Shown piece after piece: positions 29,401 to 32,400 of a stretch of DNA of 64,000 nt. Made by a program: the position numbers. Position 1 is the first letter of the stretch. The number at the start of each line of letters is the position of its first letter. The DNA lies in assembly GCF_056712565.1 (NCBI RefSeq), contig NZ_CM160072.1, one strand, 5' to 3'.

Positions 29401-32400
29401 ATCATTGCGGTGATGACGCTTTTCAACTCCTTAAGCAACCATGCGGTAGGGCGGCTGGAAGTGATCCTCGTCGGCATTAAAATGATGATCCTGTTATTGC
29501 TGATTATTGCCGGTGTCTGGTCGCTGCAACCGGCGCATATTTCCGTTTCTGCGCCCCCCAGTTCCGGGGCGTTCTTCTCCTGTATCGGGATAACCTTCCT
29601 TGCCTATGCGGGCTTTGGCATGATGGCGAACGCGGCGGATAAAGTGAAAGATCCGGAGGTCATAATGCCACGGGCGTTTCTGGTGGCGATTGGCGTTACC
29701 ACGTTGCTTTATATCTCGCTGGCGCTGGTTTTGCTTAGCGATGTGTCGGCATTAGAGTTAGAAAAATATGCCGATACCGCCGTAGCGCAGGCTGCTTCTC
29801 CGCTCCTCGGGCATGTGGGGTATGTGATCGTCGTCATCGGCGCTTTACTGGCGACGGCTTCAGCCATCAACGCAAACCTGTTCGCCGTGTTTAACATCAT
29901 GGACAACATGGGCAGCGAACGCGAACTGCCGAAGCTAATGAATAAACCTCTGTGGCGGCAGAGTACCTGGGGCAACATCATCGTCGTGGTGTTGATTATG
30001 CTGATGACGGCGGCGCTGAATTTAGGCTCACTCGCCAGCGTTGCCAGCGCCACCTTTTTGATCTGCTATCTGGCGGTGTTTGTGGTGGCGATCCGCCTGC
30101 GTCATGATATTCACGCCTCGTTGCCGATTCTTATCGTTGGTACGTTGGTTATGTTGTTGGTGATCGTTGGCTTTATCTACAGTCTCTGGTCCCAGGGCAG
30201 CCGTGCGCTGATATGGATTATTGGCGCACTCTTACTCAGCCTTATTGTGGCAATGGTCATGAAGCGCAATAAAACCGTATAACATCTCTCTGTGCGCAGT
30301 ACTTCCTGTATTATTGTGGTGGCGGTCGATATTCGCACTGGCAAAAAAACGTGCTTGAATATTTGTTGAAACCCTTTAACAAAGCACAGGAGGCGTTGCG
30401 CGAACGATGAACATTAGCGATGTAGCAAAAATTACCGGCCTGACCAGCAAAGCCATTCGCTTCTATGAAGAGAAGGGGCTGGTGACGCCGCCGATGCGCA
30501 GCGAAAACGGTTATCGCACCTACACGCAGCAGCATCTCAACGAACTGACCTTACTGCGCCAGGCACGCCAGGTGGGCTTTAACCTGGAGGAGAGCGGCGA
30601 ACTGGTGAATCTGTTTAACGATCCGCAGCGTCATAGTGCCGACGTCAAACGTCGTACGCTGGAGAAGGTGGCGGAGATCGAACGGCATATCGAAGAACTG
30701 CAATCCATGCGCAACCAGCTACTGGCGCTGGCGAATGCCTGCCCTGGCGATGACAGCGCCGACTGCCCGATTATCGAAAATCTCTCCGGCTGCTGTCATC
30801 ATCGGGCGGGGTGAAAATCAGTTAATCTCCGTTTGCACCGAAAGAATATGCTGCAAACTTTCTACCATAATGCGCCCCGACTGAAATAAGCCTTCCTGGA
30901 TTTCGTTGTTAACATTCACAGCGTGAACCAGGGAGGCTAATAACACCACTTGCAAGAAGGCAAAAATAAACGCACCGATAATCATAATATGCGTCAGGGG
31001 GATTTTCCTTTGCTCCTTCATTTTAAATAACCCACAAACTGACCTTCCTTCATTAAGGCGACTTTTCCCGTATGGTGATAAACAATGACGTTATAAAGAC
31101 CTGACTGATAAACAGTGGCATCTTTATTGTCTTCATCAATTGCACATAATGAATCATTGAGATAAGCAAAGTTCTTACTGCTCATTCTAAAGGTCATGCC
31201 AAATCCTTTATAAATGGCTTTCTTTGCCGCCTGGGCATGTTGTGCGGCTTCTGCATTTTTAAATGCCTGCGCCTCGGATGCACTTAAAATAGCCGTCTGA
31301 CGCTGTTGTTCTGCGAGATAACAGGTGTCATGGCTGACGCCCTGCGCCTGGCAATCTGCGATGCGGGAAGTGGGTGAACTACAGCCAGTCAGTAATATAA
31401 CCGCCAGCAGGGAAAACGATTTAATGGAGCTATTCATCATTGTTAACCTTAAATAATGTGCGAATTAATGAAGAGGTGAAACCCGGCAAGCTTCCTTGCT
31501 CTTATTTATATTGAGGATTGAAATATTAGAACGAATATCCTACGCCGACACCTGCGCCGAAATCAGATTGCGTATCCGCAGAAATACCGGCTTTAAGTAC
31601 CGTATGCGTTCCGGCATTAAAAGATGTTCCTACAGACACCGCAGATTCACCGTTGAAGGTTCCCGCTCCCGCTGACACCATCATCACGTCACCGGTTTTC
31701 ACCTGTGGTTGTGAGGCGATAGCGATGGCAGATGCAGTTCCCGCATTGGCTTCTTTACGATTGTCCTCAACTTCGTTTTTCAGAGAATCGAAATGGTTAT
31801 TGAGCGTGTTAATTTGTTGGCTGTTATCTGCGACCCGTTTTTGCGTGTTGGTTAACTGTTGCTGCGTTTGTGCGGAATCTTGTCTCAGACTTTCAATTTG
31901 CTCATGTGCCTGGACAGACTTCTGCGCCAGACTTTGCATTTGTTTATCGTATTGAGCCCTTTCTTTTTGCTGTTGTGCTGCCACATCGGTTGTCAGTGCA
32001 TTCATTTTCTGCCCTTGTTCCGTGGTAGTGCGCTGATTAGCCTCATTTTGAGCCGCCAGTCTGGCATTAATCATCTCCTGATAATGCGCGGTATTTTACG
32101 TATCTCCAGTCGCGGCGAGCGTTTTTTGTGTGGCTACGATCTGCGCCTGTTGCTCTGTAATTTGCGTTTGCTGGGCGTCAGTTACCGCAGACTGTCGGGC
32201 GTTGATCATGCTCTGATAACGGGCAGGTATCTGTACAACACCTGTAGCGGCAACGGTTTTTTGTCCTGCGTCAGGATCTGTCTGGACAGGGGGAGTCTGA
32301 GTGGTATCAGGTGTTTCAGAAGGGATGTAGTGATGTTCAGTCAAATAGGTATACGCAGCGGGACTGTTGTCTGTGCGTTCTAAAAAGTGGGTAATCTTCT

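What the first reader, a model, noticed from the sequence alone, without database searches (positions are those of the whole stretch)
30818..31440. Coupled lipoprotein plus small single-TM protein pair of unknown function
A 140-aa lipoprotein (lipobox LLTGC, several cysteines) is followed by a 67-aa single-TM protein with ATGA stop/start overlap. The pair lies 85 nt downstream of the adhesin-like gene on the same strand, so it may be co-transcribed as an accessory factor (for comparison, Salmonella SadA pairs with the lipoprotein SadB) or act as an envelope toxin/immunity-like pair. The intervening sequence contains a short hairpin (gcaag-gaag-cttgc).
Basis: inference. Interest (0 to 1): 0.45.

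Follow-up and report, generated by a model that had tools for sequence, protein, structure and literature searches.

The report
Adhesin-linked lipoprotein and small membrane protein
These two real, uncharacterised E. coli genes (a lipoprotein and a tiny inner-membrane protein) lie in genomic island OI-29 directly behind a YadA-type trimeric adhesin gene; because the lipoprotein keeps that position in many enterobacteria, it is probably a new kind of adhesin accessory factor.

Summary
On the minus strand, a 140-aa lipoprotein (31018-31440) and a 67-aa single-pass membrane protein (30818-31021) overlap by ATGA. They lie 85 nt downstream of a YadA-anchor trimeric autotransporter adhesin (TAA) gene. 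Both ORFs are under purifying selection.

The locus is O-island 29 of EHEC O157:H7. The lipoprotein is z0638, the TAA is z0639 (published as "GmrA"), and the divergent 120-aa ORF is z0640. The 67-aa ORF is not among the three genes the OI-29 paper lists. In this window the TAA is a pseudogene (Q149*), but it is intact in O157:H7 and in the E. coli type strain.

The pair is chromosomal and single-copy in 1413 of 5426 complete E. coli genomes.

The lipoprotein matches no Pfam, NCBIfam or PDB family. It is not SadB, TpgA or MliC. Among two-domain homologues from 34 species, 21 sit directly downstream of a YadA-anchor gene, in several chromosomal contexts, once as a tandem TAA-lipoprotein duplication.

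The small protein occurs only in Escherichia and Pseudocitrobacter.

Best reading: an outer-membrane-sorted periplasmic accessory lipoprotein of short TAAs, with a lineage-specific inner-membrane partner. Nothing supports a toxin/immunity pair. The function is untested.

The parts
31018..31440 (-). z0638-family lipoprotein, 140 aa. It has a signal peptide with lipobox LTG|C20, a Cys30-x9-Cys40 helical hairpin, an Ala/Gln-rich helix (about residues 37-65) and an 8-stranded beta domain (residues 75-139).
   Evidence: ORF and sequence. Identified as z0638 by mapping the published deletion primers. AF2 model with pLDDT 75.9 overall and about 90 in the beta domain. Family of 144 representative clusters. 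Residue +2 is never Asp and the Cys spacing is 9 in 128 of 129 N-domains. dN/dS 0.03-0.05.
30818..31021 (-). 67-aa small protein. Predicted N-in single-pass inner-membrane protein with a periplasmic tail of about 33 aa, probably helical, carrying a conserved LVHA(V/I)..N.E...(F/Y)QS motif.
   Evidence: ORF. Hydropathy. Homologues at 34-42% identity with the same -4 overlap in Pseudocitrobacter loci L004, L006 and L008. dN/dS 0.03-0.22. Family confined to Escherichia, Shigella and Pseudocitrobacter. Topology is inferred from the positive-inside rule.
31018..31021 (-). ATGA stop/start overlap, implying translational coupling of the lipoprotein and the small ORF.
   Evidence: Junction sequence TTAAAATGAAGG. 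The same -4 overlap is present in L001-L004 and L006-L009.
31441..31525 (-). 85-nt gap between the TAA gene and the lipoprotein gene. It contains a weak hairpin (31485-31500) and an AAGG Shine-Dalgarno-like motif 7 nt before the lipoprotein ATG.
   Evidence: No minus-strand terminator and no promoter-like site in the gap. The fold is not better than shuffles (z = +0.66). Sequence.
31526..32542 (-). YadA-anchor trimeric autotransporter adhesin gene, known as z0639, 'gmrA' or ECs0548 'Saa-like protein'. It is a pseudogene here (Q149* at 32096-32098) and an intact 338-aa gene in O157:H7 and in E. coli ATCC 11775.
   Evidence: PF03895 YadA_anchor, E = 4e-12. RefSeq notes an 'internal stop'. Intact orthologues. 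Nonsense position. Primer mapping. Sakai name.
32637..32665 (-). Sigma-70 promoter-like site (TTTACA-17-TAGATT) about 95 nt upstream of the TAA start. It is a candidate operon promoter.
   Evidence: This is a consensus match only; the region has no more such matches than shuffled sequence.
32909..33271 (+). z0640, a divergently transcribed 120-aa protein with an XRE-type helix-turn-helix. It is the candidate regulator of the cassette.
30815..33382 (.). Extent of the published OI-29 deletion (island S-loop 43), inserted between cueR (30407-30814, +) and ybbJ (33374-33832, -). The deletion's right arm lies just inside the 3' end of ybbJ, so the island itself ends at about 33373.
   Evidence: Mapping of the OI-29 deletion arms. 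In E. coli genomes without the island, cueR and ybbJ are adjacent.

Best explanation
The pair forms the 3' end of a conserved adhesin cassette, island OI-29. The cassette order is a divergent XRE-HTH gene (z0640), then the short YadA-anchor TAA (z0639), then the lipoprotein (z0638), then the 67-aa membrane protein.

The lipoprotein is most likely made from the TAA transcript. It would be exported by Sec, lipidated at Cys20 and sorted by Lol to the inner leaflet of the outer membrane, because it has no Asp at +2. There its disulfide-stapled helical hairpin (Cys30-Cys40), its polar Ala/Gln-rich helix and its small 8-stranded beta domain would face the periplasm.

Its proposed role is that of a dedicated partner of the TAA. 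It would assist or stabilise trimerisation, membrane insertion or anchoring at the periplasmic face of the 12-stranded anchor barrel. This is functionally analogous to SadB and TpgA but uses an unrelated fold.

The 67-aa protein is translationally coupled to the lipoprotein. It is an N-in inner-membrane protein whose tail of about 33 aa reaches into the periplasm. It is a lineage-specific add-on found only in Escherichia and Pseudocitrobacter, and probably binds or modulates the lipoprotein.

What is shown:
- the gene structures and purifying selection;
- conserved synteny with TAAs;
- the lack of homology to known families;
- the predicted fold;
- co-regulation in published RNA-seq and qRT-PCR data.

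What is inferred:
- co-transcription;
- outer-membrane localisation;
- the disulfide;
- any physical contact with the TAA or the small protein;
- the helper activity itself.
For: Synteny:
- Of 34 species with a two-domain homologue, 21 have a YadA_anchor ORF ending 47-327 nt upstream on the same strand (one first-start ORF call overlaps the anchor ORF by 38 nt). They include Escherichia, Pseudocitrobacter, Enterobacter, Rahnella (9 species), Hafnia, Yersinia and Ewingella.
- None of the 20 loci with only the N-terminal module has one (Fisher p = 1.9e-6).
- The cassette sits in at least four different chromosomal contexts: cueR-ybbJ, fetA-qmcA, next to thiM, and next to a serine recombinase.
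- Rahnella woolbedingensis carries a tandem TAA-lipoprotein-TAA-lipoprotein duplication.
- In two Citrobacter genomes the two domains are split into adjacent genes that are still downstream of a TAA.

Localisation signals:
- The lipobox is conserved.
- Residue +2 is S, T, V, A, Q or K and never Asp in 129 distinct N-domains.
- The Cys-x9-Cys spacing is fixed in 128 of 129, which fits an oxidising extracytoplasmic compartment.

Operon logic:
- The gap is 85 nt, with no coding-strand terminator and no promoter-like site.
- The small ORF overlaps the lipoprotein stop by ATGA.
- z0638, z0639 and z0640 are all expressed in DMEM and all fall together on HeLa contact, by -10.6, -8.5 and -5.2 fold (PMC5826968 Table S3).

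Precedent: SadB and TpgA are, according to a 2026 preprint, the only described TAA helpers, and both are encoded next to their TAA. SadB also has a lipid anchor, a polar helix and an 8-stranded beta domain.
Against: - No experiment links z0638 to the adhesin.
- The one published z0638 deletion was tested for motility and for fliC and motA transcript levels, and had no phenotype.
- Deleting the whole of OI-29 did not change HeLa or Caco-2 adherence.
- Ten to 13 of the 34 two-domain homologues are not next to a recognisable TAA. Examples are L014, L016, L031, L034 and Klebsiella aerogenes L088. The lipoprotein can therefore persist alone, or act with a TAA encoded elsewhere.
- Many of the syntenic loci come from related species (nine are Rahnella), so the counts are not independent.
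- The pair remains intact here although the TAA is a pseudogene. The intact TAA in ATCC 11775, next to an identical pair, suggests this inactivation is recent.
- The third gene of the cassette differs between clades: the TM protein, an unrelated 70-81-aa ORF with no predicted transmembrane segment, or nothing. The 67-aa protein is therefore not part of the core mechanism.
Confidence: 0.5

Rival explanations
1. The lipoprotein is a general envelope lipoprotein whose function does not depend on the adhesin. It could be a periplasmic binder or inhibitor built on a small beta-barrel, in the manner of the MliC/PliC lysozyme inhibitors. On this reading it merely travels with TAA genes in small islands.
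For: - Ten to 13 of 34 homologues stand alone without an adjacent TAA.
- The C-terminal domain also occurs alone behind an ordinary signal peptide in many proteins.
- The z0638 deletion has no reported phenotype.
Against: - Foldseek finds nothing at E <= 0.001.
- There is no Pfam MliC hit, and no PDB hit from a family profile.
- The adjacency to TAAs is far above what chance allows and survives duplication and gene fission.
Confidence: 0.2
2. The outer-membrane lipoprotein and the small inner-membrane protein form an envelope sensor or relay. It would report the assembly state of the adhesin to the cell, by analogy with the RcsF/IgaA or NlpE/Cpx logic. This could couple adhesin display to motility.
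For: - The predicted topology places one partner in each membrane with periplasmic segments.
- The two genes are translationally coupled.
- Deleting the adjacent TAA gene ('gmrA') lowers fliA and fliC expression and motility (PMC5826968). That effect is easier to explain through envelope signalling than through DNA binding by a secreted outer-membrane protein.
Against: - The z0638 deletion did not change motility or fliC and motA expression.
- The small protein is absent from most cassettes.
- No similarity to RcsF, NlpE or IgaA was found.
- The idea rests on analogy alone.
Confidence: 0.12
3. The pair is an envelope toxin/immunity pair, or a spanin- or holin-like lysis pair.
For: - A small hydrophobic protein is coupled to a lipoprotein.
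- One weak PHROGs hit to an Rz-like spanin (E = 0.026) covers only lipobox residues 11-27.
- One weak NCBIfam hit to a T6SS immunity lipoprotein (E = 0.05, 13.7 bits against a cutoff of 43) was found.
Against: - There are no PADLOC hits.
- tblastn finds no match in 50,697 phage records.
- The pair is not on genuine plasmids.
- It is single-copy and chromosomal in 1413 E. coli genomes.
- There is no lysis cassette, T6SS or CDI context.
- The lipoprotein is regularly found without the small ORF.
- The sizes are the reverse of the usual spanin arrangement as I recall it: a large inner-membrane i-spanin with a small o-spanin lipoprotein.
Confidence: 0.03

Closest known systems
SadB (Salmonella/E. 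coli; PDB 4C47) and its paralogue YajI
   Same: - It is a lipoprotein encoded next to a TAA in the same orientation, and it is lost together with the TAA.
- Its architecture is a lipid anchor, a polar helical segment and an 8-stranded beta domain.
- Its proposed role is to help a trimeric autotransporter reach the surface (PMC3953254).
   Different: - SadB is upstream of sadA, whereas this gene is downstream of its TAA.
- SadB has Asp at +2 and stays in the inner membrane, whereas this family never has Asp at +2.
- The SadB coiled coil has nine heptads and its beta domain about 120 residues. Here there is one helix of about 29 residues and a beta domain of about 65 residues.
TpgA (Acinetobacter AtaA partner; BamE-like domain with or without an OmpA-like peptidoglycan-binding domain)
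   Same: It is encoded downstream of its TAA, is periplasmic and promotes TAA display. It is widespread in Gamma- and Betaproteobacteria (bioRxiv 10.64898/2026.01.22.700529).
   Different: No BamE or OmpA_C domain is detected by Pfam or NCBIfam, and the fold search returns no BamE- or TpgA-like match. The protein has no recognisable peptidoglycan-binding module.
MliC/PliC/ACP periplasmic lysozyme inhibitors
   Different: There is no sequence-family match. The Foldseek matches are not significant. Those proteins are not linked to TAA genes.
TraV (F-type T4SS outer-membrane lipoprotein)
   Same: It shares the N-terminal lipobox followed by a conserved Cys pair. Weak hits were found: TIGR02747 E = 2.4e-4 and PDB 7okn E = 1.5. 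One source labels a homologue TraV.
   Different: The score is 21.8 bits against a cutoff of 44.75. The similarity covers only the signal peptide and Cys-pair region. There is no conjugation gene context.

Membership tests
Bacterial lipoprotein (Lgt/LspA substrate) | Signal peptide ending in a lipobox [LVI][ASTVI][GAS]C | tested here: met
   The sequence is MMNSSIKSFSLLAVILLTG|C. The lipobox is conserved in 129 distinct family N-domains. LipoP and SignalP were not available, so this rests on a pattern match and its conservation.
Bacterial lipoprotein (Lgt/LspA substrate) | Sorting signal: Asp at +2 retains the protein in the inner membrane; otherwise it goes to the outer membrane (E. coli Lol rule) | tested here: met
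   Residue +2 is Ser here, and none of 129 N-domains has Asp at +2. This predicts outer-membrane sorting. The localisation itself cannot be tested with these tools.
SadB/YajI | Sequence or fold homology of the C-terminal MATH-like beta-sandwich (4C47, 2JWY) | tested here: not met
   [not shown]
SadB/YajI | Inner-membrane retention (Asp at +2) | tested here: not met
   The sequence is Cys-Ser-Ser. The family never has Asp at +2, whereas SadB does.
SadB/YajI | Long N-terminal trimeric coiled coil | not testable with these tools
   The monomer model predicts one helix of about 29 residues (37-65). Oligomeric state could not be predicted.
SadB/YajI | Encoded adjacent to, and in an operon with, a TAA | tested here: met
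   The gene is adjacent on the same strand in 21 of 34 species, but downstream of the TAA rather than upstream. Operon status is inferred and from the co-regulation data.
TpgA | BamE-like N-terminal domain and/or OmpA_C peptidoglycan-binding domain | tested here: not met
   [not shown]
MliC/PliC lysozyme inhibitors | Membership of the Pfam MliC family, or a significant sequence match to solved members | tested here: not met
   No Pfam hit at E <= 1. No PDB hit from the family profile at E <= 10.
MliC/PliC lysozyme inhibitors | Eight-stranded antiparallel beta-barrel fold | tested here: inconclusive
   [not shown]
TraV (TIGR02747) | Score above the curated cutoff | tested here: not met
   21.8 bits against a cutoff of 44.75, covering residues 7-66 only.
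Two-component spanin (Rz/Rz1) | Located in a phage lysis cassette, with homology to spanin families | tested here: not met
   The only PHROGs hit (E = 0.026) lies on the lipobox. tblastn finds no match in phage records. The chromosomal island has no phage genes.
Toxin-antitoxin, immunity or defence systems | Match to known toxin, immunity or defence protein families | tested here: not met
   PADLOC gave 0 hits for both proteins. Pfam and NCBIfam gave nothing above threshold.
Trimeric autotransporter adhesin (the neighbouring gene) | C-terminal YadA_anchor (PF03895), a coiled-coil stalk and an N-terminal signal peptide | tested here: met
   PF03895 E = 4e-12, 46.4 bits against a cutoff of 22.7. 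The signal peptide MKTVNVALLALIISATSSPVVLAG and the Q-rich coiled coil are visible in the sequence. The gene is disrupted by Q149* in this window.

The most novel reading that the evidence does not exclude
z0638-type lipoproteins would be a third, structurally unrelated class of dedicated TAA partner, after SadB and TpgA, specific to short 'headless' YadA-anchor adhesins of Enterobacterales. In Escherichia the lipoprotein and the 67-aa inner-membrane protein would form a trans-periplasmic link that couples adhesin assembly to cell physiology. This could also explain why deleting the TAA gene, published as the transcription factor 'GmrA', changes flagellar gene expression.
Probability: 0.2. Interest if true: 0.7.

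Novelty: new variant of a known kind. Interest (0 to 1): 0.5.

Why it matters
According to a 2026 preprint, only two helper proteins for trimeric autotransporter adhesins have been described, SadB and TpgA. That preprint's global survey reported finding no further ones. The survey required a YadA head domain, and no head domain was detected in the TAAs examined here (Pfam found only the anchor), so it would probably have missed this cassette.

A conserved, unrelated lipoprotein encoded behind such adhesins in at least eight enterobacterial genera would widen the picture of type Vc secretion. It would also give z0638 and an unannotated small gene of EHEC island OI-29 a testable role.

The work also bears on a published claim. 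The OI-29 gene reported as a DNA-binding activator (GmrA) is the outer-membrane adhesin gene itself, and the island's real helix-turn-helix protein is z0640. This should prompt a re-examination of how OI-29 affects motility.

Tried and rejected
- Pfam, NCBIfam, PADLOC, PHROGs and PDB sequence searches on both proteins gave nothing above threshold.
- Foldseek against PDB gave no significant match for the lipoprotein model. The afdb50 library was unavailable.
Alignment A1 was used instead.
- Reading the intergenic hairpin as a terminator or regulatory structure is rejected. There is no U-tract on the coding strand, and the fold is no better than shuffles.
- An Rfam scan of the island found only sub-threshold REP-like (naRNA4) hits at its right border.
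- I considered predicting a lipoprotein/small-protein fusion to test for contact. I did not run it, because the tool returns no coordinates or PAE, so an interface could not be judged.
- The upstream ORFs in L010 and L011 are coiled-coil rich and end in ...SGDF, so they look adhesin-like. Pfam gave no YadA_anchor hit, and I did not count them as TAAs.
- A profile search for distant relatives of the 67-aa protein found none outside Escherichia, Shigella and Pseudocitrobacter.
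Full report
**Observation.** The window is an E. coli chromosome segment, 100% identical to strain ZJ3920 over the region. On the minus strand, 31018-31440 encodes a 140-aa protein that starts MMNSSIKSFSLLAVILLTG|C. It has a canonical lipobox and further Cys residues at 30, 40 and 99.

Its TGA stop overlaps the ATG of a 67-aa ORF (30818-31021) in the sequence TTAAAATGAAGG. The small protein has a basic N-terminus (MKEQRK), one strongly hydrophobic segment (Kyte-Doolittle maximum 2.7 over residues 14-32) and an acidic tail of about 33 residues.

The gap to the upstream YadA-anchor gene is exactly 85 nt (31441-31525). 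It has a 5-6 bp stem and no U-run on the coding strand, and the stretch folded (the gap plus 5 nt on each side) folds no better than shuffled sequence (z = +0.66). I treat it as insignificant.

Both ORFs are genuine genes:
- RefSeq annotates them.
- dN/dS is 0.03-0.05 for the lipoprotein and 0.03-0.22 for the small ORF among Escherichia comparisons.
- Homologues with 34-73% identity in other genera keep the same -4 overlap.

**What the locus is.** The pair lies in a 2.6-kb insertion between cueR and ybbJ. Those two genes are adjacent in E. coli genomes without the island.

Literature search identified the insertion as O-island 29 (OI-29) of EHEC O157:H7 EDL933, also called S-loop 43 in Sakai. 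I mapped the published deletion and cloning primers of Yang et al. 2018 (PMC5826968) onto the window. This gives:
- z0638 = the lipoprotein (31018-31440);
- z0639, named "gmrA" = 31526-32542, the YadA-anchor gene;
- z0640 = the divergent 120-aa ORF (32909-33271).

The 67-aa ORF is not among the three genes that paper lists for OI-29. RefSeq calls it a hypothetical protein.

In this window z0639 is a pseudogene through a CAA>TAA change at codon 149 (32096-32098). It is an intact 338-aa gene in O157:H7 and in the E. coli type strain ATCC 11775. The type strain carries a pair 100% identical to the window's, so the inactivation is probably recent.

The pair is single-copy and chromosomal in 1413 of 5426 complete E. 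coli genomes. It is absent from phage records. It is absent from genuine plasmids as well: the two E. coli 'plasmid' hits are 4.9-Mb records, evidently chromosomes.

**Homology and fold of the lipoprotein.** Pfam, NCBIfam, PADLOC and PDB sequence searches gave nothing above threshold. The weak hits to TraV, the Lpp-like alanine zipper and a T6SS immunity lipoprotein all cover the signal peptide, lipobox and first helix.

An exhaustive profile search found only 144 representative clusters. They show two separable modules:
- an N-terminal module with the lipobox, RMA-D/E-C-x9-C-Y-x-A-E-Q-N-R-Q and an Ala/Gln-rich helix;
- a C-terminal beta module with the motif ...Y-x-x-G-L-Y-x-V-I-x-Y-x-x-G-K-V-A-L-M....

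Each module also occurs alone. In several Citrobacter genomes the two are encoded by adjacent genes.

AlphaFold2 on a 16-sequence alignment gave pLDDT 75.9 overall and about 90 in the C-terminal domain. It predicts helices at 23-32 and 37-65 and eight short strands at 75-139.

Across 129 distinct N-domains, residue +2 after the lipid-modified Cys is never Asp, and the Cys-Cys spacing is 9 in 128 cases. By the E. coli Lol rule this predicts outer-membrane sorting. The invariant Cys pair flanking the turn between the two helices suggests a disulfide-stapled hairpin in the periplasm. Both points are inferences.

**Genomic association.** This is the main evidence for function. A scan of one genome per species returned 80 loci. 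I called ORFs in each and searched them with HMMs for the YadA anchor, the lipoprotein, the small protein and z0640.

| Locus class | Loci | With a YadA_anchor ORF within 700 nt upstream, same strand |
|---|---|---|
| Two-domain homologue | 34 | 21 |
| N-module plus a different C-terminus | 16 | 6 |
| Split (two adjacent genes) | 10 | 2 |
| N-module only | 20 | 0 |

- In the 21 two-domain loci with a TAA, the anchor ORF ends 47-327 nt upstream (one first-start ORF call overlaps it by 38 nt).
- They come from Escherichia, Pseudocitrobacter, Enterobacter, nine Rahnella species, Hafnia, Yersinia, Ewingella and uncultured Enterobacterales.
- The contrast between two-domain and N-module-only loci gives Fisher p = 1.9e-6. 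Relatedness among species inflates this.
- The cassette lies in at least four unrelated chromosomal contexts.
- It is tandemly duplicated as a TAA-lipoprotein unit in Rahnella woolbedingensis.
- A z0640-like ORF is present in 16 of the 34 two-domain loci, divergent from the TAA in the loci where this was checked.
- The passenger regions of the associated TAAs are highly variable. Only the stalk-to-anchor transition and the anchor are conserved. If there is a contact, it is therefore most plausibly at the periplasmic or anchor end (inference).
- Ten to 13 two-domain homologues have no recognisable adjacent TAA, so the link is strong but not obligate.

**The 67-aa protein.** Homologues exist only in Escherichia (coli, marmotae, whittamii), Shigella and Pseudocitrobacter, even with a profile query. 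They always overlap the lipoprotein stop by 4 nt.

Other clades differ:
- Rahnella, Serratia and one uncultured Enterobacterales MAG have an unrelated, equally coupled 70-81-aa ORF with no predicted transmembrane segment.
- Pantoea conspicua has a 69-aa ORF with a C-terminal transmembrane segment.
- Yersinia, Hafnia and Enterobacter have nothing.

The small membrane protein is therefore a lineage-specific accessory, not part of the core. It evolves faster than the lipoprotein: 42% against 73% identity to the same Pseudocitrobacter locus.

**Operon and expression.** There is no promoter-like or coding-strand terminator-like site in the 85-nt gap. A promoter-like site lies upstream of the TAA start at 32637-32665.

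Published RNA-seq and qRT-PCR show z0638, z0639 and z0640 all expressed in DMEM, with RPKM 20, 96 and 44. All three fall together on HeLa attachment, by -10.6, -8.5 and -5.2 fold. Co-transcription itself remains to be shown.

**Interpretation.** The best-supported reading (confidence about 0.5) is that z0638 encodes an outer-membrane-anchored periplasmic partner of short YadA-anchor adhesins. It would help or stabilise their trimeric assembly or anchoring. In Escherichia the 67-aa inner-membrane protein would be an added partner or modulator.

This is the same kind of system as SadB-SadA and TpgA-AtaA but is not a member of either family:
- The fold and sequence tests failed.
- The gene order differs from sadBA.
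- The sorting signal predicts the opposite membrane to SadB.

The 2026 preprint that surveyed TAA neighbourhoods found no further helpers. It required a YadA head domain, and no head domain was detected in the TAAs examined here.

Rivals:
- An adhesin-independent envelope lipoprotein, possibly an MliC/PliC-like binder (0.2).
- An envelope sensor or relay linking adhesin status to motility (0.12).
- A toxin/immunity or spanin-like pair (0.03), for which no evidence was found.

Published phenotypes are thin. The z0638 deletion does not affect motility, and the OI-29 deletion does not affect HeLa or Caco-2 adherence. Neither experiment tests the helper hypothesis.

**Side findings.** The published "transcriptional activator GmrA" is, by its own primers, the full-length TAA. 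The forward primer encodes the signal peptide MKTVNVAL... and the reverse primer encodes the anchor terminus ...GVGYSF. Pfam sees only the YadA anchor (E = 4e-12) and a non-significant MerR-DNA-bind match in the coiled coil (E = 0.16).

The island's actual helix-turn-helix protein is z0640.

In Rahnella and Ewingella, the TAAs of this cassette carry an in-frame HTH-like N-terminal extension of about 40 aa directly before the signal segment. This is unexplained.

**Verdict.** The pair belongs to a known island but is functionally uncharacterised. It plausibly represents a new, non-homologous variant of TAA-associated helper proteins. Interest 0.5.

Noticed in passing
[not shown]
   Followed up: yes
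[not shown]
   Followed up: yes
window 32096-32098: The TAA gene is inactivated in this strain by a CAA>TAA nonsense mutation at codon 149. The otherwise identical island in E. coli ATCC 11775 has an intact gene.
   Followed up: yes
L015, L018, L019, L020, L022, L024 (Rahnella) and L037 (Ewingella), at the 5' end of the TAA ORF upstream of the lipoprotein: These TAA ORFs carry an in-frame N-terminal extension of about 40 aa with a helix-turn-helix-like motif (ELARYFGVSASTIRRVL) directly before the hydrophobic signal segment. Many Pfam HTH families hit just below threshold, and CENP-B_N scores 21.6-22.9 bits against a cutoff of 21.2. In L019 the hydrophobic segment has no Met or basic n-region of its own, so the extension is probably translated. 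An adhesin preprotein with a cytoplasmic HTH is unexplained.
   Followed up: partly
L015, L018-L020, L022, L024-L026, L028, L033, L035, immediately after the lipoprotein gene: In Rahnella, Serratia silvae and an uncultured Enterobacterales MAG, the lipoprotein gene is followed by a different conserved ORF. It usually overlaps the lipoprotein stop by 4 nt, as the E. coli small ORF does. It is 70-81 aa with no predicted transmembrane segment (MKKHHTDQFKHLPPEQQ...) and has no Pfam match.
   Followed up: partly
L067, L069, L075-L077, L080-L082 (Citrobacter and relatives): The two modules of the lipoprotein are encoded by two adjacent genes. One is an 80-99-aa lipoprotein with a His-rich tail in the copy inspected (L076). 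The other is a 116-120-aa protein with an ordinary signal peptide that carries the beta domain. This is a natural gene fission, which indicates that the modules work together.
   Followed up: partly
window 33257-33413: REP-type repeats lie between z0640 and ybbJ at the right edge of the island. They appear as sub-threshold Rfam naRNA4 hits on both strands. They probably explain why the island query hit a median of 6 places per E. coli genome.
   Followed up: partly
L003 1616-2839 (E. coli O145 RM9872): This variant of the island carries an extra 407-aa ORF between cueR and the small membrane protein gene. It has no Pfam or NCBIfam match.
   Followed up: no
L004 1801-5532 (Pseudocitrobacter faecalis): Two TAA genes in tandem (633 aa and 588 aa) precede the lipoprotein and small-ORF pair. 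The second has a weak YadA_anchor hit at E = 8e-4. A large serine recombinase gene lies 1.5 kb downstream, which suggests the cassette is part of a mobile island there.
   Followed up: no
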